A stretch of 64,000 bases of DNA from Pseudomonas phage vB_PaeM_RyC23_M4LORT: sequence record PP781973.1, one strand, 5' to 3'. The position numbers and the translations under genes are program-made. Every line of letters begins with the position of its first letter. Within the stretch, counting starts at the first letter, position 1. Shown piece after piece: positions 14,306-60,429 of this stretch. The notes below the pieces were generated by a model. The model searched no databases, was not told where the DNA came from, and was given only the letters and a program-made list of their open reading frames with translations.

Positions 14306-15196
14306 TTACTCTTCTTCACCATCGGAACCGTCGGCGCCCTGACCTTCACCGTCGTGCTCCTGGCCTTCATCGGCCTTCTCGTCATCGCCCTGGCCAGCTT
14401 CGTCTTCCTTCGAAGCGATGGCAACCAGATCGACCCAGCCCATGATTTCCAGCTTGCTCAGATAGCTGCGGACAGAGGTGCCATAGAGCAGATGGGCCAC
14501 CTTCTCGCCGAAGGCTTCGATTTCGACCGGCTCACCAACGGTGCAGTGCTCGTTGATGTAAGCAAACACCTTGCCGCGAGTCGAGAAGGCCTGCGGGGTT
14601 CCATGGCCGTCGCCGGTCGGGATGAAGTGAGTGGCGCGGGGGCGACGCGAGCCGTTGGACTTCAGGTCTTCGCGGCGGGCTTCGGCCTTCGCGCGGCGCT
14701 CTTCCTGCTCTTCCTTGCGGCGCTGCTTCTCGGCTTCGCGCTCTGCCTTCTTCTGCTCGGCCAGGCGCTTGCGCTCTTCTTCGCGTGCGGCTTTCTGGGC
14801 TTCCTGCGCGGCCTTCTTCTCTTCGGCCTTCTTGGCGCGCTCGGCTTCCTTCTCGGCCTTCTTCTGCTCGCGCTCGGCTTCCTTCGCCTTCGCCTTCTCG
14901 GCCAGCTCGGCTTCCTTCGCCTTCGCCTTTTCAGCACGCTCGGCTTCCTTGGCGGCGGCCTTTTCCTTCGCCTTCTCGGCGCGCTCGGCTTCCTTCTTCT
15001 CGCGCTCGGCCTGGCGCTTCGCTTCTCGCTCGGCTTTCTTCTGCTCGGCTTCCTTGGCCTTGGCTTCGGCCTTCTCGGCGCGCTCGCGCTCTTTACGTTG
15101 ACGCTCGGCGGCCTTCTCGGCTTTGCGCAGGGCTGCTGCTTGTTCCTTGGTCAGCTCTTCGCCTTGGGCCTGTTCGTTCTGGTCTTTCTGTTCCAT
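14306..15196 (-). CDS. K/E/A-rich low-complexity coiled-coil protein with C-terminal globular domain and acidic tail
   Basis: 296 aa; ~190 aa of (A/E/K) repeats (EKAKAKEAE...); the underlying DNA carries tandem ~33-nt repeats (14880-14950); C-terminal ~90 aa are non-repetitive, then a D/E/G tail. Confidence 0.6.
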   Translation of the reverse strand: MEQKDQNEQAQGEELTKEQAAALRKAEKAAERQRKERERAEKAEAKAKEAEQKKAEREAKRQAEREKKEAERAEKAKEKAAAKEAERAEKAKAKEAELAEKAKAKEAEREQKKAEKEAERAKKAEEKKAAQEAQKAAREEERKRLAEQKKAEREAEKQRRKEEQEERRAKAEARREDLKSNGSRRPRATHFIPTGDGHGTPQAFSTRGKVFAYINEHCTVGEPVEIEAFGEKVAHLLYGTSVRSYLSKLEIMGWVDLVAIASKEDEAGQGDDEKADEGQEHDGEGQGADGSDGEEE

Positions 15197-21146: not shown

Positions 21147-22886
21147 ATGATTATCGACGACGATAACATTCTTGATGATGACGAATCGGGGTCCAGTGAG
21201 TTCGATCTCACACAGATAGAAGATGCTGGAATGGACCCTTTGATGACCGCCGCAAGTAAAGCGGCCGACGATGCGATTGCGAGGAATGAGACTTACCGAG
21301 CGCAAAAGGCAGCAAAGTATGCAGAGGCGTATGCGGAACCAGATTTGAAGAAGCGAGCGCGATTGTTGATGCTCGATCAGGCCTTTGATCTTCCGGTCAG
21401 CCGGCTGGTGAAAGGACCGTTCGACGACTTCATCACCAAGTACAGCTCGACTTCAGACAGCAACTACCTCGCGGTCTATGATACGTTGTTCTGTAAGGGC
21501 GACGGAACTGTCCCACACCCGCACTTCGACGAGTTTCGCGGCCGGCTGGTGGACCACCGAGGCGTGGCGTTCAACAACAAAACCCTCGATCCGATTGACC
21601 TGATGGGCGCCCTCGCGGCTGCGGCCTTGGACGATCCCTCGATTAAGAAGACGATTGAGACTTGCTGCGTTTGGGCGCGTCGATATCGCCGCAACTCGCT
21701 GATCGAGACGTTTGAGAAGAAGATACCGGATTGGGACGGCGAAGAGCGGATCGAAACGCTGCTGATCGACTTGTTCAAACCGTTCGACACCGAGCTTAAC
21801 CGGATGGTGAGCAAGTATTTCTGGCTGAGCTTGTACTGCCGCATCAACTACCCTGGAATCTCGGCGCCGATCTCGTTGGCGTTGATTGGTGGGCAGGATG
21901 CGGGGAAATCATATTTCGGCTTGCTGATCTGTAAGGAACTGTCCGGTGGGCGCGATCTGGCTCCAGTTCAGCTCGACCTGAGCCGACACGACCAGACGCC
22001 GTTCCTGCGCAACATCACCGGCAACTCGGTTATTGCGAACGTCGGCGAAATGTCCGGCTTCAAAAAGGGCGACATGGAACGCATCAAAGAATTCCTGGTG
22101 CGATCTTCGGATACATTCGATCAGAAATTCGAGCCTGGCGAAACGATCAAGCGACAATGGATCACCATCATGGACGGCAACGGATACGATGGACTCCAGC
22201 GGGACGACTCCGGCAACCGTCGATTCTATCCGATGTTCGTGGCACAACTTCCCGACGAAGATGGAAAGCCGAACTGGGTTAAGCCGGGCGATGGTAATGA
22301 ACCGTTCAAGGTGGACTTCACCGACTTCGGTCGCAAATTCTGGCAAGCGATGGCTGAATGCCGCGCATGGATCGAAGAGCATGGTGTCGATGGATACCTG
22401 GATATGGTGTCGGAAGCGAACCGCGAAGTGCAGAAGTTCTCTATTTCGGAAATGGAGAATGCGCGTGGCGTGGTTCGTGATGACACGATTGATATGTATC
22501 TGATCAACGTGCTGATCAGTTGCGAGTTCGAAGAGATCAAGCCTGGCAGGAATTCAAAGAATCCTGGATGGAGAGTCAACACCATCGAAATCCTGAAATG
22601 GTTCGATGTTCTCGCCAGAAAGAAGCCGATTTCTCGCCACTTAACTCCGCACCTGAAGGCTCTGGGATTTGTTCCGAATAAGAATGGCTTGAATGGATGG
22701 TGCCTGCCTGTAGATAAGGTTGCACCTGGATGGACCAGAGATATGCACACGACGTTGCCGCCGTTCAATGATGTGCTTGTATACTTGCTGAGGAAGGTGG
22801 ATTCTGAGGTGACTGATGAAGAGGCAATGATTCAAATCCGCAAAGTTAAGGCCGAGCGCGCAAGGATATTGGGCGAGGATTTCTGA
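21147..22886 (+). CDS. VirE-family / primase C-terminal-like P-loop NTPase (replicative helicase-primase component)
   Basis: 579 aa; P-loop LIGGQDAGKS; acidic N-terminus; layout typical of virulence-associated E (D5/VirE) phage replication proteins. Confidence 0.7.
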   Translation: MIIDDDNILDDDESGSSEFDLTQIEDAGMDPLMTAASKAADDAIARNETYRAQKAAKYAEAYAEPDLKKRARLLMLDQAFDLPVSRLVKGPFDDFITKYSSTSDSNYLAVYDTLFCKGDGTVPHPHFDEFRGRLVDHRGVAFNNKTLDPIDLMGALAAAALDDPSIKKTIETCCVWARRYRRNSLIETFEKKIPDWDGEERIETLLIDLFKPFDTELNRMVSKYFWLSLYCRINYPGISAPISLALIGGQDAGKSYFGLLICKELSGGRDLAPVQLDLSRHDQTPFLRNITGNSVIANVGEMSGFKKGDMERIKEFLVRSSDTFDQKFEPGETIKRQWITIMDGNGYDGLQRDDSGNRRFYPMFVAQLPDEDGKPNWVKPGDGNEPFKVDFTDFGRKFWQAMAECRAWIEEHGVDGYLDMVSEANREVQKFSISEMENARGVVRDDTIDMYLINVLISCEFEEIKPGRNSKNPGWRVNTIEILKWFDVLARKKPISRHLTPHLKALGFVPNKNGLNGWCLPVDKVAPGWTRDMHTTLPPFNDVLVYLLRKVDSEVTDEEAMIQIRKVKAERARILGEDF

Positions 22887-22907
22887 TGTAGTGATGGAGT
22901 GTACTTG

Positions 22908-22942
22908 GACTAGGCCGCCTTCGGGCGGTCTTTTCTTTGGTG
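22908..22942 (+). terminator. rho-independent terminator after the VirE-like gene
   Basis: AGGCCGCC-ttcg-GGCGGTCT followed by TTTTCTTT. Confidence 0.7.
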
Positions 22943-22949
22943 AGGCGTA

Positions 22950-23560
22950 CATTCTATTAGGTTGTGGCCGAGTGAGATTCGGAAGCTATCTGGTAATTAG
23001 GATGGGGTGGCGATGGTGTATTATGGAAAGTTCGTGGACGGTGGATCGAGGATTTTGTGTGGTGAGTGGGTGGATTATGGAAAATCGACGATTCTGACTG
23101 GATTTTTGGGGTCGGCCGCGCCGGTCTTACTGGTAATTACCGAAACCGGGAATTTGGGTCGAGCCTTAGTGCCGCGTGGGCTTGAAGCGCTTATTCGGAT
23201 ACTTCCCGGTTTCGGATGCAGCCGCAAAAGTATACTACAGCGAAAATCGATTGCACAATCCTAATAGAAAAAATCTATCACGGACGTTACCTATCTTTAA
23301 AATTAATAAAATTAATAGTAATTTGGTAATTTGGTAAACTTTAGTATTTGAAAGCCTCGCGGCACTAAGCTTGTACATATCCCGTCAAGTTTCCGATTCC
23401 AGCCAGCTCGCGGCAGGGTCGCCGGAAACTTCCGGACTTCCAATCCATGGGTCGCGGCAACACCACGGCGGACTAAGCGGCAGGCACCAAAACTCGACGA
23501 ACGGAACCGGAAATTTGGGAGCGCGACAGAATCGCTCAGCTGGACATATTTCTAACATTC
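22950..23560. repeat. iteron-like direct and inverted repeat cluster with AT-rich core (candidate origin, pac site or regulatory hub)
   Basis: perfect 13-bp inverted repeat CCGAAACCGGGAA (23140-23152) / TTCCCGGTTTCGG (23204-23216); direct repeats ATTATGGAAA (23021-23030, 23074-23083) and AACCGG(G)AAATTTGGG (23144-23159, 23502-23517); motif TCGCGGCA at 23355, 23407, 23451, 23769, plus an inverse copy at ~23170; AT-rich stretch 23281-23345; palindrome CCGGAAACTTCCGG (23421-23434). Confidence 0.5.
23321..23400 (+). repeat. conserved ~75-nt element, copy A (core AAAGCCTCGCGGCAcTAaGCTT...ATCCCGTCAAGTTTCCGA)
   Basis: ~80% identical to 43163-43240; an inverted partner of the core lies at 23165-23188. 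Confidence 0.7.
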
Positions 23561-23847
23561 TATTTAACACTCAATCCAAACACTCACCACCATCGTCTCC
23601 CGCCAACCGCCGACTCGATCCTCACCCACCAGCGGATCGCCCGTATAACATCCTATAACACCACCTAACACTCATTCATCATCAAACCCACCCAGACCTA
23701 CAGCCCACCCACAAGCAGCCCATAGACGCGATCCCTGGCCCCATAGTACAATCGCGCCATACTCAGTGTCGCGGCAGAGCACCAGGCCCATCCACCACCA
23801 ACGCCACCGCGACGACTCCAGAATCGAACTCAGGGACGCAGCACCAA

Positions 23848-24417
23848 ATGACCAAACACTACAGCCCCGACGATCTAGTCACGCCACAGGAATTCGCAGA
23901 CCCGCATTTCGCGGCGATCAACCAAAAGCGATTCGACCTGTACATCGACCTGCGCGTCCAAGGCTACAGCTCCTGGCGGGTCTTCCGGGCCATCTGGGGT
24001 GAGGAGCACATGGACGGTCCCGCCCAGGCTCGCATCTTCGCGATGGAGTCCAACCCGTACTATCGCAAGCAGTTCAAGGCCAAGTTGAACGCGACCAAAA
24101 CGTCCGACTTGTGGAATCCAAAGACGGCGCTCCACGAACTCCTCCAAATGGTTCGTGACCCCACCGTCAAGGACTCCAGTCGTCTGTCGGCCATCAAGGA
24201 ATTGAACGTTCTGGCTGAAATCACGTTCGTGGACGAGTCTGGCAAGACCAGGATCGGTCGCGGTTTGGCCGACTTCTACGCATCAGAAGCCGAGGCTCAG
24301 ACCGCGACCGTCGCTGCTGCGGCCGAAGCCAATGGCTATGTGCCGGAAGGCGAAGAGGGCGATTTCCCGTCCCCGACGCCGGAACCGACCGAGGAAGACC
24401 GCGCCAACCCCATTTAG
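23848..24417 (+). CDS. putative terminase small subunit (tentative)
   Basis: 189 aa; N-terminal LVTPQEFADPHFAAINQKRFDLYIDLRVQGYSSWRVFRAIWGEE resembles the HTH region of TerS proteins (LTPKQExF...Y...G.N...A...AGYS); acidic C-terminus; sits right after the repeat-rich non-coding region. Confidence 0.35.
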   Translation: MTKHYSPDDLVTPQEFADPHFAAINQKRFDLYIDLRVQGYSSWRVFRAIWGEEHMDGPAQARIFAMESNPYYRKQFKAKLNATKTSDLWNPKTALHELLQMVRDPTVKDSSRLSAIKELNVLAEITFVDESGKTRIGRGLADFYASEAEAQTATVAAAAEANGYVPEGEEGDFPSPTPEPTEEDRANPI

Positions 24418-26421: not shown

Positions 26422-26473
26422 AAAATGTCCTCCAATGAGAAAGCCTCTGCCGAGTCGCAGAGGCTGGTTGTTG

Positions 26474-26704
26474 TTAGTCGCGCTTCAACAGAACGACTTT
26501 GTCATATGCGCGATATTTACCGCGCCAGTCTTCCCAGTAGTCGCCGGCCGGGCAGGTAAGCTCCAGGGTGATTTCGTCGCGCCAGCATTCGACAGAAAGT
26601 ACAATCGCCTTGTTCCTGGCTGCACCCTCTGCGGCATCTGCTCTGAGCTTAATCAGAATTTCGTCGCCAGTTTTCAGCTCATCAACTCTTACAACTTTGG
26701 CCAT
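26474..26704 (-). CDS. hypothetical protein
   Basis: 76 aa from MAKVVRVDEL; strong SD AGGAGTG 8 nt upstream; the longer upstream extension lacks an RBS. Confidence 0.5.
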   Translation of the reverse strand: MAKVVRVDELKTGDEILIKLRADAAEGAARNKAIVLSVECWRDEITLELTCPAGDYWEDWRGKYRAYDKVVLLKRD

Positions 26705-36309: not shown

Positions 36310-37242
36310 TCATCCGAAGAATTTTCCGGCACAGATCGGGCCAATGCCCATTTCGATGGATGCGTGGTTGGTCAACTCGCGACCGCAGCAGGAGCACTGA
36401 CCAGTCTTCCGACCGTAGGCGACTGCCGATTCCATCGGCTTTTCGAACATCTTCAGAACGTCGTCGTGCTCAGTATCGGTGCAGTCGCGACTCTTGATGA
36501 ATTTGCCATTGGTGATCCGGCCGAGGTAGATGTCGCCCAGGACGTACAGGCTACCGGCGTTCCGGCTGTGAGCGCTAGCCTCTTTCACAACAACGATGAG
36601 CGGCTCCTCGCCTTCGCCAGCTAGGCGGATTTTCGGGCGCTTGATACCAGACTCTTTCGCCTTCTCAAACGCTTTCTCGATGCAGGAAATGTCCAGAGTC
36701 GGCGCAGCAGCTTCCTGCGCGGCCACTTTCTCGCGATACTTGGCGAGGTTTTCGATGGCGCGCTTCGCAGCAGCGATCTGATTTTCCGTCAAGGAGCCGT
36801 ATTTATACAACGACTCCTGAAGGCTCTGAGCGAAGCTGAAGGAATTTCCAGTCCACCACTCGATGATATCCGGGTGCGCGGCTTCGAAAGCCTTAATTTT
36901 GAGGTCGCGTTCTTGCGCAGCGCTACAGATTTTCTCGGCGCGCTTTTCTGCCGCCTTGGCACGGCTCTTGGCGCGCTGCTCCGGGCTGGTTTTGTACTCT
37001 TTGTATCCGACACCGCCGCAGGCAAAGCAGGCGCGACCATAAGATGAAGGGCCACGGTACAGGCCGGTGCCTGCGCATTTGGTGCACTTGTCGCGATACA
37101 GCTTCACTTCCTTCCGGGAGTTCGGGCGGGCGCCCATGGACACATCTTCCAGCGTCTTCGGAGCTTCGTCAGTGATCGCTACGGTAGCGAAGTCATCGCC
37201 CAGGTCTTCGAAGCCGGTGAACAGATTCTCTGCTGCGTTCAT
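36310..37242 (-). CDS. zinc-finger protein with DnaJ-type CxxCxGxG repeats
   Basis: 310 aa; CTKCAGTG...CFACGGVGY (two CxxCxGxG units) and a C-terminal CSCCGRE...GPICAGKF cysteine cluster. Confidence 0.6.
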   Translation of the reverse strand: MNAAENLFTGFEDLGDDFATVAITDEAPKTLEDVSMGARPNSRKEVKLYRDKCTKCAGTGLYRGPSSYGRACFACGGVGYKEYKTSPEQRAKSRAKAAEKRAEKICSAAQERDLKIKAFEAAHPDIIEWWTGNSFSFAQSLQESLYKYGSLTENQIAAAKRAIENLAKYREKVAAQEAAAPTLDISCIEKAFEKAKESGIKRPKIRLAGEGEEPLIVVVKEASAHSRNAGSLYVLGDIYLGRITNGKFIKSRDCTDTEHDDVLKMFEKPMESAVAYGRKTGQCSCCGRELTNHASIEMGIGPICAGKFFG

Positions 37243-42754: not shown

Positions 42755-42890
42755 ACCGCAAGACGTGCCGGCGCCGACTCGTGGTCGATGTAATCAGGGC
42801 CAATATTCACGGCGGATTCTTCAGCCTGAAGTTTGCCGCCATCGATTTGGCAATCATCGGCGTCGCCATCTTGATGGCTTTTGGCCGATA
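42751..42890 (+). CDS. small membrane protein
   Basis: 46 aa ([46 protein letters not shown]), ATGA-coupled; under the ORF-track cutoff. Confidence 0.3.
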
Positions 42891-43162
42891 ATGCTGAGAA
42901 AAATCTGGATTCTGACTAAAAATTCTAGTCCGGATAGCCGCAAGTTACCGTTTACGGAAAATAGCAGTAATTTGGAAATCCTACTGCCGCGAGGCTTTAA
43001 CAGAGCCAGTTCCTAATTTCCGATTTAGCCGCATGCTTCAAAAGTATATAGCCTGGGAAATTAGAAGTAACGTTCCAATAGAATTCATCTATAAGTAACG
43101 TTATAATATAACGTCAATCTATATGCTCTAGACGTATTGAAATTCAATTTTTAATCGGTAAA

Positions 43163-43240
43163 TTGGTAATTTGAATTAGTTTAGGAGTTGAAAGCCTCGC
43201 GGCAGTAGGCTTAGACAAATCCCGTCAAGTTTCCGAGACC
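43163..43240 (+). repeat. conserved ~75-nt element, copy B
   Basis: GGTAATTTGaattagtttaggagTTGAAAGCCTCGCGGCAGTAGGCTTagACAaATCCCGTCAAGTTTCCGAgaCC; the 19-nt core AAAGCCTCGCGGCAGTAGG recurs as an exact inverted copy at 42979-42997. Confidence 0.7.
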
Positions 43241-43404
43241 AAATTACCGGATTTTCGCGGCTGAGGAAACTGGTAATTAGATCACAATACAAATTATAAT
43301 GTAAGTTAACAGTCACGGCTACATCTAATTATTGTTCCGCTTATTTACCCTTAGATGTACTGCGTATATAATACAGCCATAGTCCACGACTCTTCGAATT
43401 AACG

Positions 43405-44838
43405 ATGGCAAAGTCGAAAAGAAAAATTGACGAAAATGGATATATGACCATAGAGGGCTGCCCGATCAGCTCTTATGGCGTTTTCCAATATTCTGCTGGT
43501 CAACTCGGTCTTCCGGGCGATCCGACGCGGATTGTCAACGTATATCGCCCGGAGTCTGCCGTCAGCGATCCGGAGTACATCGAATCTCTGAAGAATCTCC
43601 CGTTGATCGACGAGCATGAGATGCTGTCGGGATTCGACGATGATGACGATAGCGTGGCCCCCGAAGACAAAGGGGTGGAGGGCATCATCACATCCAACGC
43701 TTACTACGAAGCCCCATGGGCACGCGGCGATATCCGCATCTATTCCCGCAACATGCAGAATCAGCTGGAAAGGGGCAAAGAAGACCTGTCCCTAGGCTAT
43801 AGTTGCCGCTACACTGAGCAACCCGGCATCTGGAACGGGACGCCTTATGAAGTCGTCCAGGACAAGATGCGCGGCAACCACATCGCCCTGGTAAAAGAGG
43901 GTCGTGTGCCGGGGGCCAGAGTATTGGATGGTCTGTGTTTTGACCATCTCAGTTTTGATTTCAGACCATCCGATGAGGGTAATGAAATGAGTCTCAAGAA
44001 AGCCAAGCGGAAGCCCCCTGTCCAGCGCGTAGGGCAAGCTGCTGACTCGGCGGTCGAAGAGTTGCGCGCCCTGTGGCCGAAGCTATCTGCGTCTGTCCAG
44101 AAGTTCCTGGGCGAAGAAGAGCAGGAGCCGGAGCATCAGGAAGGCGCAGCTCCGGCCGAACCGACCGACAGCGAGCACCTGACCGAGCATCCGACTCTGG
44201 AAGGTGCTCAGAAGGATGACGAAGAGCAGGAAGAGGAGCCTTCCGTTGTCGATCCGGCCGTGGCCGCCGTCGAGCCGGAGCATCAAGAAGGTGCCGCATC
44301 CGAAATGTCCGGTGAAGGCGAAGTCGCCGAACTGATCTCTCAAGTCAAGGCCATTCTGGCTCGACTGGAGGGCACGGTAGCCGAAGGGGCGGACGAAGAG
44401 CATGGCGAAGGTCAAGATGTCGTCGAGGGCTTGGAAGAGCAGAGCAGCCTCAGCGGCGCGCAAACCGCCAGCGACGATGGTGGTGAGGGCAAGGATAACA
44501 GCGAGGAACTTCCTGAAATGGCACAGAAGAACGCGCAAGATGCTGCAATTCGCGGTCTCTATCGCGACATTGCTGCTAAAGATCGCCTCTACAAGCGTCT
44601 TAGCTCCGTGGTTGGTGCGTTCGATCACCGAGCTATGGACTCGGCTGAAGTCGCTGTTTACGGCGTGAAAAAGCTGAACATCAGCTGTGCGAAGGGCCAG
44701 GAAGCTCTGGCGCTCGACATGTACCTGAAAGGCGTCGAAGCCTCGCGCGGCGCGGCCAGCCGTCAATCGAAAGCCCAGGATTCGGCCGGTTCTGCTCCGC
44801 AGTGCGCCGAGCTGGACAGCTACCTGAAGGGGGAGTAA
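43405..44838 (+). CDS. putative scaffolding protein (N-terminal phage-conserved domain, acidic coiled-coil C-terminus)
   Basis: 477 aa; position between MuF and capsid genes; N-terminal ~190 aa globular (GCPISSYGVFQY...), then an E/Q/A-rich tract with repeated EPEHQEGAA. Confidence 0.5.
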   Translation: MAKSKRKIDENGYMTIEGCPISSYGVFQYSAGQLGLPGDPTRIVNVYRPESAVSDPEYIESLKNLPLIDEHEMLSGFDDDDDSVAPEDKGVEGIITSNAYYEAPWARGDIRIYSRNMQNQLERGKEDLSLGYSCRYTEQPGIWNGTPYEVVQDKMRGNHIALVKEGRVPGARVLDGLCFDHLSFDFRPSDEGNEMSLKKAKRKPPVQRVGQAADSAVEELRALWPKLSASVQKFLGEEEQEPEHQEGAAPAEPTDSEHLTEHPTLEGAQKDDEEQEEEPSVVDPAVAAVEPEHQEGAASEMSGEGEVAELISQVKAILARLEGTVAEGADEEHGEGQDVVEGLEEQSSLSGAQTASDDGGEGKDNSEELPEMAQKNAQDAAIRGLYRDIAAKDRLYKRLSSVVGAFDHRAMDSAEVAVYGVKKLNISCAKGQEALALDMYLKGVEASRGAASRQSKAQDSAGSAPQCAELDSYLKGE

Positions 44839-59175: not shown

Positions 59176-60429
59176 ATGGCTAACTACAACTACATCGTCG
59201 ATACTGGTGTGATAGTCGCAGATACCGCCGACGTTCTGAGCGACGTTGAGGCCGAGTTCCGCGCCGCCCTCGGTGCCAATATCAACTTGGCCGCGAGCAC
59301 TCCGCAGGGATCGCTTGTCGCGGCCGAGGCCATCGCCCGTTCCAGTGTCATGCGGAATGAAGCGCGAATTGCCAATACCATAAACCCGAACGTTTCATTC
59401 GGAACGTTCCTGGACGCGATCTGTGCCTTGATGGGGATCGAGCGCGGTTCTGATCTGTCAACCTTCGGCTATGGAGTTCAAGTCACCGGCCGCAGCCAAA
59501 CCCGCATTTCCACCGGGTCTAGGGTCCAGACTCCGGCCGGCGCGATCTTCACAGTGATGAGCGATGTCACGATCCCTGCTGGTGGTGTCGCGACCATCGA
59601 TATCAAATCGCAGGAGTATGGCAACATTCCTCTGCCGGTCGGGAATCTCATAATCATCGACGGAACAATTGGGTGGTCCGGAGCAAAAGTCATCGCCTCC
59701 ACTCGCGTCGATCCGGGCAGCCGCCAAATGAGCGATGCAGAGTTGAAGAATGCCCGCGTTAATCGATTGGCCATCCAAGGCCGCAACTCGACTATGGCCA
59801 TCAAGGCGTATGTGAGCGCCGTTCCAAACGTCACGTCGGTGAACGTAATCGAGAACAACACCGGCGCCGTTCAAGTGGTGAATGGAGTCTCGTTTACCCT
59901 TCCGTATGCTGTTTGGGTCTGCGTCGCCGGAAACCCGGATAAACAAGCAGTCGCCGATGCGTTGTGGGCCGCCCATAACGGCGGAACTCCATGGGACTAT
60001 GGTGCGACGAACAACGGCGTCCCGGTGGACGGTCCGAACGGCGTTCCTGTGCGCGATCCGGCGTCCGGTCGAAAGTATGTCGTGAAGTGGACCACTCCAA
60101 TCATGTACGATGGATATGTTAACGTAACAGTCCAGCAAGGTTCCTCCTCTGTAGCTCCGGAAGCCATTCAGAACGCAGTGGTCAATTACGCCCAGGGGAA
60201 AGTGGAAGGGGAAGAGGGGCTGGTGGTGGGCGCGAGCCTGTCGGCATTCGAAGTCGCCGGAGCCATCGCTCGCGAAATTCCCGGCATCTACATCAAACTC
60301 TGCCAGGTCGCGTGCGTCGCGGCTGGCTCGCCGGCTCCGGCTCCGGGCGATTTCACTTCGGAATACGTCATGAGCGCATTCGGCCAGGCTACCATTTCCG
60401 TTGGTAACGTTCGGGTGACTTTCGTATGA
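59176..60429 (+). CDS. baseplate J-like protein
   Basis: 417 aa; size and position (after gpV-like, before gpI-like) match the Baseplate_J family. Confidence 0.6.
   Translation: MANYNYIVDTGVIVADTADVLSDVEAEFRAALGANINLAASTPQGSLVAAEAIARSSVMRNEARIANTINPNVSFGTFLDAICALMGIERGSDLSTFGYGVQVTGRSQTRISTGSRVQTPAGAIFTVMSDVTIPAGGVATIDIKSQEYGNIPLPVGNLIIIDGTIGWSGAKVIASTRVDPGSRQMSDAELKNARVNRLAIQGRNSTMAIKAYVSAVPNVTSVNVIENNTGAVQVVNGVSFTLPYAVWVCVAGNPDKQAVADALWAAHNGGTPWDYGATNNGVPVDGPNGVPVRDPASGRKYVVKWTTPIMYDGYVNVTVQQGSSSVAPEAIQNAVVNYAQGKVEGEEGLVVGASLSAFEVAGAIAREIPGIYIKLCQVACVAAGSPAPAPGDFTSEYVMSAFGQATISVGNVRVTFV

What the first reader, a model, noticed from the sequence alone, without database searches (positions are those of the whole stretch)
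23321..23400. Conserved ~75-nt element shared by the two large intergenic regions, each with an inverted partner copy
Positions 23321-23400 and 43163-43240 are ~80% identical over ~75 nt (GGTAATTTG...TTGAAAGCCTCGCGGCA(C/G)TA(A/G)GCTT...ATCCCGTCAAGTTTCCGA). In both loci the ~20-nt core (AAAGCCTCGCGGCAGTAGG) also appears as an inverted copy ~185-210 bp upstream, at 23165-23188 and 42979-42997, flanking an AT-rich segment. The element sits upstream of gene 23848 (putative terS) and upstream of the late structural operon (43405+). The core can form a hairpin (AAGCCT-cgcggcagt-AGGCTT). No sigma70 promoter fits it. The architecture suggests paired binding sites for a phage regulator (late activator or repressor), phage-specific promoters, or a structured RNA.
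Basis: seen in the sequence. Interest (0 to 1): 0.65.

Follow-up and report, generated by a model that had tools for sequence, protein, structure and literature searches.

The report
Duplicated phage DNA-packaging start module
The repeated 75-base element is one arm of a roughly 350-base non-coding module that, upstream of the small terminase gene of this Pseudomonas PB1-like phage, surrounds the point where DNA packaging starts; a second, unexplained copy sits upstream of the head genes.

Summary
The window is a Pseudomonas aeruginosa Pbunavirus (about 97% identical to 14-1). The 12-mer YGCGGCANTANG occurs exactly four times in 64 kb, and those four copies are the four arms (0.23 expected).

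The homology between the loci covers about 350 bp, not 75 nt. Each module has an AT-rich centre flanked by YGCGGC repeats about 50 bp apart: on the minus strand to the left, on the plus strand to the right.

At locus 1 the downstream gene is the small terminase (99% identical to PDB 7UXE). The fixed DNA end reported for Ab27 and JG024, and the start of about 23 GenBank records, map to window 23248, in the centre.

The same polar layout lies upstream of terS homologues down to 27% identity (44 of 50 repeats, p = 1.6e-8). In Pantoea phage Kyle the record's first base lies in the centre.

The element also holds the published sigma-70-type promoter P040 of 14-1, with its start site at window 23352.

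An RNA structure is not supported.

Best reading: a pac-type packaging-initiation region with terminase-binding repeats. Binding itself is inferred, not shown.

Locus 2 is a paralogue conserved across Pbunaviruses and absent in Carpasina. Its function is unknown.

The parts
23115..23226 (-). Locus 1, left repeat array: YGCGGC hexamers on the minus strand at 23115-23120, 23171-23176 and 23221-23226 (128, 72 and 22 nt left of the cut). The middle hexamer lies in the 22-nt left arm 23165-23186.
   Evidence: The -72 and about -121/-128 copies are present in all 15 aligned Pbunavirus sequences whose cut-site anchor was found. The -22 copy is present only in the window-type lineage.
23226..23330 (.). 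Locus 1 centre: AT-rich and almost invariant across Pbunavirus lineages. It contains the fixed genome end (the cut lies between 23247 and 23248; packaged DNA runs rightwards from CGATTGCACAATCC).
   Evidence: Alignment of 18 sequences. Ab27 position 1 equals window 23248. JG024 59,376 equals 23248. About 23 of 296 GenBank records start at 23246-23250.
23321..23400 (+). The element in the finding. It contains: GTAATTTG tandem repeats; overlapping -10-like hexamers (TAAACT 23335-23340, with TG at 23332-23333, and TAGTAT 23342-23347); the transcription start at 23352 (by homology with 14-1 P040); the first right-hand repeat TCGCGGCA at 23357-23364 within core 23348-23369; and CCCGTCAAGTTTCCGA.
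23387..23431 (+). Inverted repeat AAGTTTCCG / CGGAAACTT (23387-23395 and 23423-23431) enclosing the second right-hand repeat TCGCGGCA (23408-23415).
   Evidence: This is the only stem kept in both loci. One pair changes G-C to A-U in the PB1-type locus 2.
23452..23459 (+). Third right-hand TCGCGGCA repeat. It is lost in PB1-type lineages.
23723..23776 (+). Proximal terS promoter (P041 of 14-1: TAGACG-18-TACAAT, start at 23760), followed by a fourth TCGCGGCA at 23769-23776.
23848..24417 (+). Small terminase subunit gene (terS).
   Evidence: 99% identical over 189 aa to PDB 7UXE 'Small terminase' of phage E217.
42937..43033 (-). Locus 2, left repeat array: YGCGGC on the minus strand at 42937-42942, 42986-42991 (inside arm 42977-42998) and 43028-43033.
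   Evidence: These copies are conserved in all 10 locus-2 sequences the scan reached, except that T35 lacks the -120 copy. PB1-type genomes carry up to six left copies.
43040..43165 (.). Locus 2 AT-rich centre. The position homologous to the locus-1 cut is 43061/43062. The GenBank record of phage E215 starts at 43076. A sigma-70 promoter predicted for JG024 (43086-43136) was not confirmed by start-site mapping in 14-1.
43163..43271 (+). Locus 2 right half: GGTAAATTGGTAATTTG; core 43191-43212 with TCGCGGCA at 43197-43204; CCCGTCAAGTTTCCGA; and the inverted repeat AGTTTCC/GGAAACT (43228-43234 and 43265-43271) enclosing TCGCGGCT (43255-43262).
43344..43380 (+). Promoter of the head-gene operon (P014 of 14-1: TTTACC-17-TATAAT, start at about 43380). 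It lies downstream of the module and is not part of it.

Best explanation
The 75-nt element is the inner right arm of the packaging-initiation (pac-type) region of a headful-packaging Pbunavirus.

The module is an AT-rich centre of about 100-150 bp. It is flanked by arrays of the repeat YGCGGC(A), spaced 42-58 bp apart. The repeats lie on the minus strand to the left and on the plus strand to the right.

Inferred mechanism:
- Terminase, most likely the decameric small subunit encoded directly downstream, occupies the repeats on both sides.
- It presents the centre to the large-subunit nuclease.
- The first cut falls at window 23247/23248, and packaging proceeds rightwards through terS.

The right arm also carries the distal terS promoter (P040 of 14-1). 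A protein bound at the first repeat, 6-13 nt after the transcription start, could therefore also throttle terS transcription. That step is speculation.

What is shown: the position of the DNA end, the identity of TerS, the transcription start site, and the conserved polar layout. What is inferred: which protein binds the repeats.

Locus 2 is a paralogous copy of the same module with a different centre. It probably binds the same protein. Its role is not established; it could be a rarely used second cut site, a partner site, or a regulatory site.
For: 1. TerS. ORF 23848-24417 is 99% identical to PDB 7UXE.

2. Fixed DNA end in the centre.
[quoted passage not shown] It equals window 23248 exactly.
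- In JG024, 36 of 161 long reads start at 59,376, with a coverage dip just upstream. That position maps to 23248.
- About 23 of 296 GenBank Pbunavirus records start at 23246-23250.
- For SCUT-S1, PhageTerm placed the pac site in an AT-rich region.

3. Motif statistics.
- The 12-mer occurs 4 times against 0.23 expected.
- Hexamer polarity is 7 of 7 at locus 1 and 5 of 5 at locus 2.
- The two loci are the only balanced two-sided polar clusters in the window. Their scores are 6 and 5 against a mean of 0 and sd of 1.5.

4. Conservation.
- The centre 23226-23330 is nearly invariant while the left flank is highly divergent.
- The motif is kept in sequence without arm-to-arm covariation.

5. Relatives.
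- In nine lineages with TerS homologues of 27-100% identity, 44 of 50 hexamers obey the polarity rule around an independently defined lowest-GC centre (p = 1.6e-8).
- The layout stays upstream of terS where no gp75-like gene is the left neighbour (L280, L281 and Kyle).
- It is weak or absent downstream of gp75 homologues that have no TerS homologue nearby.

6. Pantoea phage Kyle. The first base of the record, which is the left edge of its terminal repeat, lies in the AT-rich centre. Inverted copies of the motif sit at -77 and +153. The record of Serratia phage KKP 3709 starts in the AT-rich part, followed by four plus-strand repeats.
Against: - E217 TerS is reported to show no appreciable DNA binding in vitro (review PMC9611059). 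The primary paper could not be read, so the DNA tested is unknown.
- Banzai's PhageTerm run found no significant peak.
- A fixed read end could in principle be a site-specific nick rather than a terminase cut.
- Locus 2 has the same arrays but no reported fixed end. The one exception is that the E215 record starts 14 nt from the homologous point.
- In Carpasina the module abuts the gp75-like helicase-primase gene and lies 2.7 kb from terS. That placement also fits a replication origin.
- GCGGC columns are not significantly more conserved than other columns at locus 1 (8/30 against 119/351 variable). At locus 2 the difference is only modest (2/25 against 88/326, p = 0.03).
Confidence: 0.62

Rival explanations
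1. Iteron-type replication origin(s). The polar repeats are binding sites for the VapE-like SF3 helicase-primase gp75 (21147-22886), which assembles head-to-head around the AT-rich centre as at SV40, papillomavirus, P4 or SaPI origins. Locus 2 would be a second origin or a P4 crr-like partner. Packaging would then merely start at or near the origin.
For: - gp75 carries a VapE-like domain.
- A gp75-like gene is the immediate left neighbour of the module in Pbunavirus, L283, L284, L288, L302, L304, L309, L313 and Carpasina.
- In Carpasina the module stays with that gene, not with terS.
- Inverted repeat sets around an AT-rich region, and two copies per genome, fit origin logic. The comparison with SaPI and P4 rests on my own knowledge, not on a test here.
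- The SCUT-S1 authors suggested that the AT-rich pac region could be an origin.
- TerS is reported not to bind DNA in vitro.
Against: - The module is present next to terS with no gp75-like neighbour in L280, L281/L282 and Kyle.
- It is weak or absent downstream of gp75 homologues that lack a nearby TerS homologue.
- The physical genome ends map into its centre in Pbunavirus, and the Kyle record starts there too.
- The published cumulative GC-skew minima lie elsewhere. They map to about window 7,500 and 17,600.
Confidence: 0.17
2. A transcriptional control region. The repeats are operators for a phage (or host) regulator that co-controls terS (P040/P041) and the head operon (P014).
For: - A mapped sigma-70-type start lies at the edge of the core in 14-1. 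TCGCGGCA follows both terS promoters at +6 and +10.
- Both modules lie upstream of late genes.
- The Putzeys paper suggests that 14-1 gp12 (ORF 36310-37242 in this window) redirects RNA polymerase to phage-specific promoters.
Against: - No start site was called at the locus-2 element, and P014 carries no such motif.
- The non-sigma-70 promoter motif of 14-1 is CTGGG, which is unrelated.
- Arrays that extend 130-220 bp to the left on the opposite strand, where no leftward transcript was detected, are not explained.
- The coincidence with the genome end is not explained.
Confidence: 0.1
3. A structured RNA: a 5' leader or small RNA whose hairpins display UCGCGGCA.
For: - The right half is transcribed from P040 as part of a leader of about 500 nt (TU045).
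- The stem GUUUCC/GGAAAC is kept in both loci with one compensatory change.
Against: - There is no Rfam family match.
- Folding z-scores are -1.0 and -1.1.
- The consensus fold is weak at -7.6 kcal/mol.
- The proposed 5' hairpin is broken in many lineages.
- The left copies would need leftward transcripts, which were not detected in 14-1. No short RNA or termination site was reported at these loci.
Confidence: 0.04
4. A remnant of a mobile element (a MITE-like unit with terminal inverted repeats) that was copied to two places.
For: - Each locus has inverted arms of about 22 nt.
- 18-nt direct repeats (23141-23158 and 23502-23519) flank locus 1.
Against: - There are only two copies, at fixed syntenic positions in all 298 Pbunavirus records.
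- The arms are part of longer polar arrays.
- The flanking direct repeat is specific to one lineage.
- The layout is conserved upstream of terS in other genera.
Confidence: 0.02

Closest known systems
pac region of Bacillus phage SPP1 (pacL-pacC-pacR) and of coliphage P1 (own knowledge, not tested here)
   Same: - A non-coding region next to or overlapping the terminase genes.
- Short repeated recognition sites on both sides of a central cleavage region.
- One fixed first cut followed by unidirectional headful packaging.
- Overlap with terminase promoters.
   Different: - The repeat is YGCGGC(A), in oppositely oriented arrays about 50 bp apart.
- terS is separated from terL by about 7 kb of opposite-strand genes.
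- TerS binding has not been shown and was reported negative in vitro.
- A second complete paralogous module sits 20 kb away.
Phage T4 gene 16 / gene 19 pac-homology ('synapsis') sites (own knowledge)
   Same: Two homologous terminase-related sequences lie in direct orientation, a few to tens of kb apart, in a headful-packaging myovirus whose TerS binds DNA poorly in vitro.
   Different: - The T4 sites are about 24 bp and lie inside coding sequence.
- Here the modules are about 350 bp, non-coding and built from repeat arrays.
- No amplification or synapsis evidence exists for Pbunaviruses.
Iteron origins served by SF3 helicase initiators (SaPI ori downstream of rep; P4 ori plus crr) (own knowledge)
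   Same: - Two sets of short repeats flank an AT-rich segment.
- The module lies directly after a VapE/D5-like helicase-primase gene in most relatives.
- There are two cis sites per genome (as with P4 ori and crr).
   Different: - The genome end maps in the centre.
- The module follows terS where the two genes are not neighbours, in three lineages.
- There is no replication evidence.
Published annotations of the same DNA: 14-1 promoter P040 and TU045 (Putzeys 2024); the putative JG024 pac site at 59,376 (Ipoutcha 2024); Ab27-Ab29 fixed ends (Essoh 2015)
   Same: The same nucleotides: the start site is 23352 and the end is 23248 in window coordinates.
   Different: None of the papers that could be searched describes the repeat arrays, their polarity, the homology between the two intergenic regions, or the conservation outside Pbunavirus. 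Ceyssens 2009 could not be read.

Membership tests
pac site of a headful-packaging phage | The genome is circularly permuted and terminally redundant, and is packaged by the headful mechanism. | not testable with these tools
   Taken from the literature only: JG024 restriction pattern and long reads, Banzai, PhiR26.
pac site of a headful-packaging phage | A single preferred DNA end (the first cut) maps to the site. | tested here: met
   Ab27 position 1, JG024 59,376 and about 23 GenBank record starts all map to window 23246-23250. The end data themselves are published, not generated here.
pac site of a headful-packaging phage | The site lies in or next to the terminase small-subunit gene. | tested here: met
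   The cut is 600 nt upstream of terS. The same layout lies upstream of terS homologues in nine lineages.
pac site of a headful-packaging phage | TerS binds the recognition repeats specifically. | not testable with these tools
   Only indirect evidence is available (co-occurrence with the TerS family). A published in-vitro test on unspecified DNA was negative.
pac site of a headful-packaging phage | The site is necessary and sufficient for packaging initiation. | not testable with these tools
   Needs genetics.
Sigma-70-type promoter (locus-1 element) | A primary 5' end is mapped experimentally. | tested here: met
   In 14-1, P040 has its start at 59399(+). Its 50-nt upstream sequence matches window 23302-23351 at 49 of 50 positions. 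This is by homology; the present phage itself was not assayed.
Sigma-70-type promoter (locus-1 element) | Hexamers match the -35/-10 consensus. | tested here: inconclusive
   The consensus scan finds none. Only -10-like hexamers are present (TAAACT with an upstream TG, and TAGTAT), and they vary between lineages.
Sigma-70-type promoter (locus-2 element) | A primary 5' end is mapped experimentally. | tested here: not met
   No start site was listed near 14-1 13073. Only P014 at 13257 was called.
Structured non-coding RNA | Match to a curated RNA family. | tested here: not met
   No Rfam match at the gathering threshold in the whole window.
Structured non-coding RNA | Covariation supports the helices, and stability exceeds that of shuffled sequence. 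| tested here: not met
   - Folding z-scores are -1.0 and -1.1.
- The left stem shows no excess covariation.
Iteron-type replication origin | Repeated sites flank an AT-rich unwinding region. | tested here: met
Iteron-type replication origin | The site is linked to the initiator gene across relatives. | tested here: inconclusive
   - Adjacent to the gp75-like gene in eight or more lineages, including Carpasina.
- Not adjacent in L280, L281 and Kyle.
- Arrays are weak downstream of gp75 homologues that lack TerS.
Iteron-type replication origin | Replication starts there and the initiator binds. | not testable with these tools
   No data.
MITE / transposon ends | Multiple dispersed copies with target-site duplications and empty sites. 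| tested here: not met
   Two syntenic copies in all records, no other copies in the window, and no empty sites.

The most novel reading that the evidence does not exclude
Pbunaviruses keep two paralogous terminase-recognition modules 20 kb apart. The one upstream of terS is cut. The one upstream of the head-protease operon is normally not cut. It may serve as a second docking site for the small terminase, for example to pair two sites on a concatemer before cutting (as proposed for T4 genes 16/19) or to couple head-gene expression to packaging. A related alternative is that both modules are bidirectional origins loaded by the VapE-like helicase-primase, and that packaging starts at an origin.
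Probability: 0.25. Interest if true: 0.7.

Novelty: new variant of a known kind. Interest (0 to 1): 0.5.

Why it matters
Pbunaviruses are among the most used therapeutic Pseudomonas phages and are now being rebuilt synthetically. Published statements about their genome ends conflict.

- **Practical use.** Tying the reported end to a defined architecture gives a concrete target for engineering: where not to cut or insert, and what to include in a packaging signal. It also bears on assessing generalized transduction. The architecture is a set of conserved polar TCGCGGC(A) repeat arrays around an invariant centre, and it is shared with Kylevirus, Carpasinavirus, Myosmarvirus and metagenomic relatives.
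- **Testable substrate.** It supplies a specific DNA on which to re-test E217 TerS, which was reported not to bind DNA.
- **Open question.** The second copy, conserved across the genus, is unexplained. If it is functional, it would be a rare case of a two-site packaging or origin system in a pac phage.

Tried and rejected
- **Rfam and tRNA scans** of the whole window found nothing.
- **Long-range pairing of the two arms** is rejected. PB1-type genomes have CAGTAGG in the left arm and CACTAAG in the right arm at locus 1. DL60 and 14-1 change one arm only.
T23371C and T23372G occur in many lineages without compensation, and the hairpin is absent from the RNAalifold consensus.
- **The 13-bp inverted repeat 23140-23152/23203-23215.** It folds strongly in this lineage (z = -3.1 and -3.7) but shows no covariation support, and the locus-2 counterpart does not fold.
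- **A protein-coding reading of locus 1.** ORFs annotated across it in the PB1-type records BL2, SPM-1, PaW12 and PaP001 are interrupted by four stops in the window, and indels between lineages are not multiples of three. I treat them as spurious.
- **Exact 14-mer scans of IMG/VR** returned mostly chance hits and wasted two scans.
- **A single-protein TerS scan of IMG/VR** found only Pbunaviruses.
- **Literature search for the motif strings** found nothing relevant.
- **Papers that could not be read:** Lokareddy 2022 (E217 terminase) and Ceyssens 2009 (not in the searchable library).
- **Second module in a relative.** Carpasina has none upstream of its head protease.
- **Conservation test of GCGGC columns against other columns.** Not significant at locus 1 and weak at locus 2.
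Full report
**Identity of the window.** The window is almost a whole genome of a Pseudomonas aeruginosa Pbunavirus (PB1-like myovirus). It is 93-97% identical to phage 14-1 over most of its length, and 298 phage records match each locus. Locus 1 (22887-23847) lies between a gene annotated as 'DNA primase' (gp75 of 14-1, 21147-22886) and ORF 23848-24417. Locus 2 (42755-43404) lies between small ORFs downstream of the portal and MuF-like genes and the head maturation protease gene, 43405-44838.

**The observation.**
- The two 75-80-nt stretches align at 82-84% identity.
- Each core has an inverted partner. The arms are 22 nt, 82% and 95% complementary, and 161 and 192 nt apart.
- The 12-mer YGCGGCANTANG occurs exactly four times in 64 kb, and these are the four arms. 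Shuffles give 0.23.
- The similarity extends well beyond 75 nt. About 330-390 bp of the two loci can be aligned, with shared islands across the left arm, the centre and the right arm.

**What the flanking gene is.** ORF 23848-24417 is 99% identical over its full length to PDB 7UXE, the small terminase of Pbunavirus E217. Pfam and PHROGs alone give it no function.

**Published transcript mapping.** ONT-cappable-seq of 14-1 (Putzeys et al. 2024, PMC10914365; tables read from the bioRxiv supplement) gives the following.
- Promoter P040 is classed as sigma-70 type, with a start at 59399(+). Its 50-nt upstream sequence is ATTAATAAAATTAATAGTAATTTGGTAATTTGGTATACTTTAGTATTTGA. This is window 23302-23351 with one difference, so the start corresponds to window 23352, the A of AAGCCTCGCGG.
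- The transcription unit TU045 runs 1227 nt through terS.
- A second promoter, P041, starts at window 23760.
- At locus 2 only P014 was called. It is a strong TTTACC-17-TATAAT promoter with a start at about 43380, downstream of the element. No start was called at the locus-2 copy of the element.
- No termination site was reported in either locus. The single non-coding RNA candidate reported for 14-1 lies elsewhere.

The statement 'no sigma70 promoter fits' is thus contradicted for locus 1. A plain consensus scan does miss this promoter, though. The -10-like hexamers vary between lineages.

**The genome end.** Several independent reports place a fixed DNA end in this region.
- Essoh et al. [quoted passage not shown] Ab27 position 1 is window 23248 exactly.
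- Ipoutcha et al. 2024 found that 36 of 161 long reads of JG024 start at 59,376 +/-5, with a coverage dip just upstream, and proposed a pac site there. By BLAST coordinates this is window 23248.
- About 23 of 296 GenBank Pbunavirus records begin at window 23246-23250.
- For SCUT-S1, PhageTerm put the pac site in an AT-rich region.

The end therefore lies in the AT-rich centre. It is 62-83 nt to the right of the left arm and 100-121 nt to the left of the right arm.

**Anatomy of the module.** The cores are the innermost members of repeat arrays. YGCGGC hexamers lie on the minus strand to the left of the centre and on the plus strand to the right, without exception in the window.

| Genome and locus | Left of centre (minus strand) | Right of centre (plus strand) |
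|---|---|---|
| Window, locus 1 | -128, -72, -22 | +110, +161, +205, +522 |
| Window, locus 2 | -120, -71, -29 | +136, +194 |
| PB1-type genomes, locus 2 | -221, -163, -120, -71, -29, -22 | +136, +193, +252 |

Positions are relative to the cut at locus 1 and to the homologous point at locus 2. Neighbouring copies are 42-58 bp apart. A sliding scan of the whole window shows that these are the only balanced two-sided polar clusters (scores 6 and 5; mean 0, sd 1.5). The one equal score comes from a one-sided cluster inside a repetitive coding region.

**Variation among Pbunaviruses** (18 locus-1 and 16 locus-2 sequences).
- The centre of locus 1 (23226-23330) is almost invariant.
- The left flank (22960-23225) exists in two very different forms.
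- The core GAAAGCCTYGCGGCA(C/G)TAAGC changes little.
- The arms do not covary with each other. PB1-type genomes carry CAGTAGG on the left and CACTAAG on the right at locus 1. DL60 and 14-1 change the first motif base in one arm only. Long-range pairing is therefore not supported.
- RNA folds of the right halves are no more stable than shuffles (z = -1.0 and -1.1).
- Only the short inverted repeat GTTTCC(G)/(C)GGAAAC, which encloses the second repeat, is kept in both loci. It shows one G-C to A-U change.
- The 13-bp inverted repeat around the left arm is specific to this lineage and has no covariation support.
- ORFs annotated across locus 1 in some records are broken by four stops here.

The pattern is that of a conserved sequence motif, that is, a protein-binding site, rather than a structure.

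**Relatives outside the genus.** TerS homologues of 27-53% identity were collected from metagenomes and assembled sequencing runs.
- They show the same layout: a non-coding stretch of several hundred bases upstream of terS, a very AT-rich centre, and YGCGGC repeats that switch strand at the centre.
- With the centre defined independently as the lowest-GC 60-nt window, 44 of 50 hexamers in nine lineages obey the rule (binomial p = 1.6e-8). One of the exceptions, L286, is polar around a different point.
- The consensus is longer than six bases, for example TCGCGGC(A/T)AAC(C/T)C, or CTCGCGGCGTAT in Carpasina.
- In Pantoea phage Kyle the first base of the record is the left edge of the terminal repeat. 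It lies in the AT-rich centre of the 694-nt gap upstream of terS. CTGCGGCAAC sits at -77 on the minus strand and TTGCGGCAAT at +153 on the plus strand. This geometry is close to the -72/+110 of the window.
- The record of Serratia phage KKP 3709 starts in AT-rich DNA 377 nt upstream of terS and is followed by four plus-strand repeats.

**The main rival: a replication origin.** The gene to the left, gp75, is a VapE-like SF3 helicase-primase.
- A homologue is the left neighbour of the module in most relatives.
- Inverted sets of short repeats around an AT-rich segment next to such a gene resemble iteron origins (SaPI ori, P4 ori/crr, SV40). This comparison comes from my own knowledge.
- In Carpasina the module abuts the gp75-like gene and is separated from terS by 2.7 kb and nine small ORFs.
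- Against this reading: L280, L281/L282 and Kyle have the module next to terS with no gp75-like neighbour.
- Also against it: gp75 homologues with no TerS homologue within 3 kb have weak arrays or none.
- Also against it: the mapped ends fall in the centre.

I put the origin reading at about 0.17. I cannot exclude that the region serves both functions.

**Evidence against the preferred reading.**
- A review reports that E217 TerS shows no appreciable DNA binding in vitro. The primary paper was not available.
- One PhageTerm analysis found no peak.
- Locus 2 has the arrays but no reported end.

**Locus 2.** It is a true paralogue.
- It has the same left-array positions (-71 and -120).
- It has the same right-arm sequence.
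- It has the same enclosed inverted repeat.
- Its centre differs: only short islands are shared with locus 1.

It is present in 294 of 298 records at 80% coverage or more. Its repeat positions are constant in the genomes the scan reached. Its GCGGC columns vary less than the rest of the region (2/25 against 88/326, p = 0.03). Carpasina has no such module upstream of its head protease, so the duplication is not ancestral to the wider group.

The only hint of cutting is that the E215 GenBank record starts at window 43076, 14 nt from the point homologous to the locus-1 cut. This could equally be an assembly break in AT-rich DNA.

The shared parts of the two modules (arrays, right arm) presumably share a function, namely binding the same protein. 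The invariant centre unique to locus 1 presumably carries what is needed for cutting. What locus 2 does is unknown.

**Verdict.**
- Already published: the position of the putative pac site, the P040 promoter and the identity of TerS.
- Not found in any paper that could be searched: the polar repeat architecture, its conservation with the TerS family across genera, and the second module conserved across Pbunaviruses.

Noticed in passing
window 23540-23850: A C/A-rich, G-poor tract (GC skew -0.33 for 23501-24000) lies between the module and terS, within the P040 leader. Compositionally similar tracts follow the module in Carpasina (tandem CAACCC-type repeats), Kyle and KKP 3709. It might be a Rho-utilisation-like leader or another packaging element. 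It remains unexplained.
   Followed up: partly
window 22960-23225: The left part of locus 1 exists in two sharply different forms among Pbunaviruses (window/14-1/E215 type and PB1/F8 type), directly next to a nearly invariant centre. This looks like a mosaic boundary or recombination hotspot beside the packaging start.
   Followed up: partly
window 23141-23158 and 23502-23519: 18-nt direct repeats CGRAACCGGRAATTTGGG bracket the locus-1 module (no mismatches to the degenerate pattern). The left copy is specific to this lineage; the right copy is largely conserved. CCGGGAA/TTCCCGG-like motifs also recur in the metagenomic relative L274 (as CCGGGGA/TCCCCGG).
   Followed up: partly
window 43076: The GenBank record of phage E215 (NC_042080/MF490241) starts here, 14 nt from the position homologous to the locus-1 cut. 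It is the only phage found whose record starts inside locus 2.
   Followed up: partly
window 21147-22886: The gene annotated as 'DNA primase' (gp75 of 14-1) carries a VapE-like SF3 helicase domain (Pfam PF05272, E = 1.4e-22). It is therefore a candidate origin-binding helicase-primase.
   Followed up: partly
PB1-type records, equivalent to window about 22990-23660: Several GenBank records (BL2, SPM-1, PaW12, PCCM_PaP001) annotate a 170-213-aa hypothetical protein across the whole pac region. F8 also lists a hypothetical protein (ORF075) here. The frame is broken by four stops in this window and is probably spurious.
   Followed up: yes
window 43086-43136: The sigma-70 promoter predicted for JG024 (and annotated in LBL3, KTN6 and CEB_DP1) in the AT-rich centre of locus 2 has no matching start site in the 14-1 ONT-cappable-seq table.
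   Followed up: yes
window 14500-15000: Strongly skewed composition (GC 0.65, AT skew -0.63) and a one-sided cluster of five YGCGGC hexamers, inside the minus-strand ORF 14306-15196. This is probably a repetitive coding region.
   Followed up: no
window about 26430-26525 (minus strand): The only 5'UTR-derived non-coding RNA candidate reported for 14-1 (62561-62469) maps approximately here, upstream of the gp79 homologue. It is unrelated to the two loci.
   Followed up: no
The Putzeys paper describes gp12 as binding the RNA polymerase alpha subunit. The alternative 14-1 promoter motif (CTGGG) is unrelated to the element studied here.
   Followed up: partly
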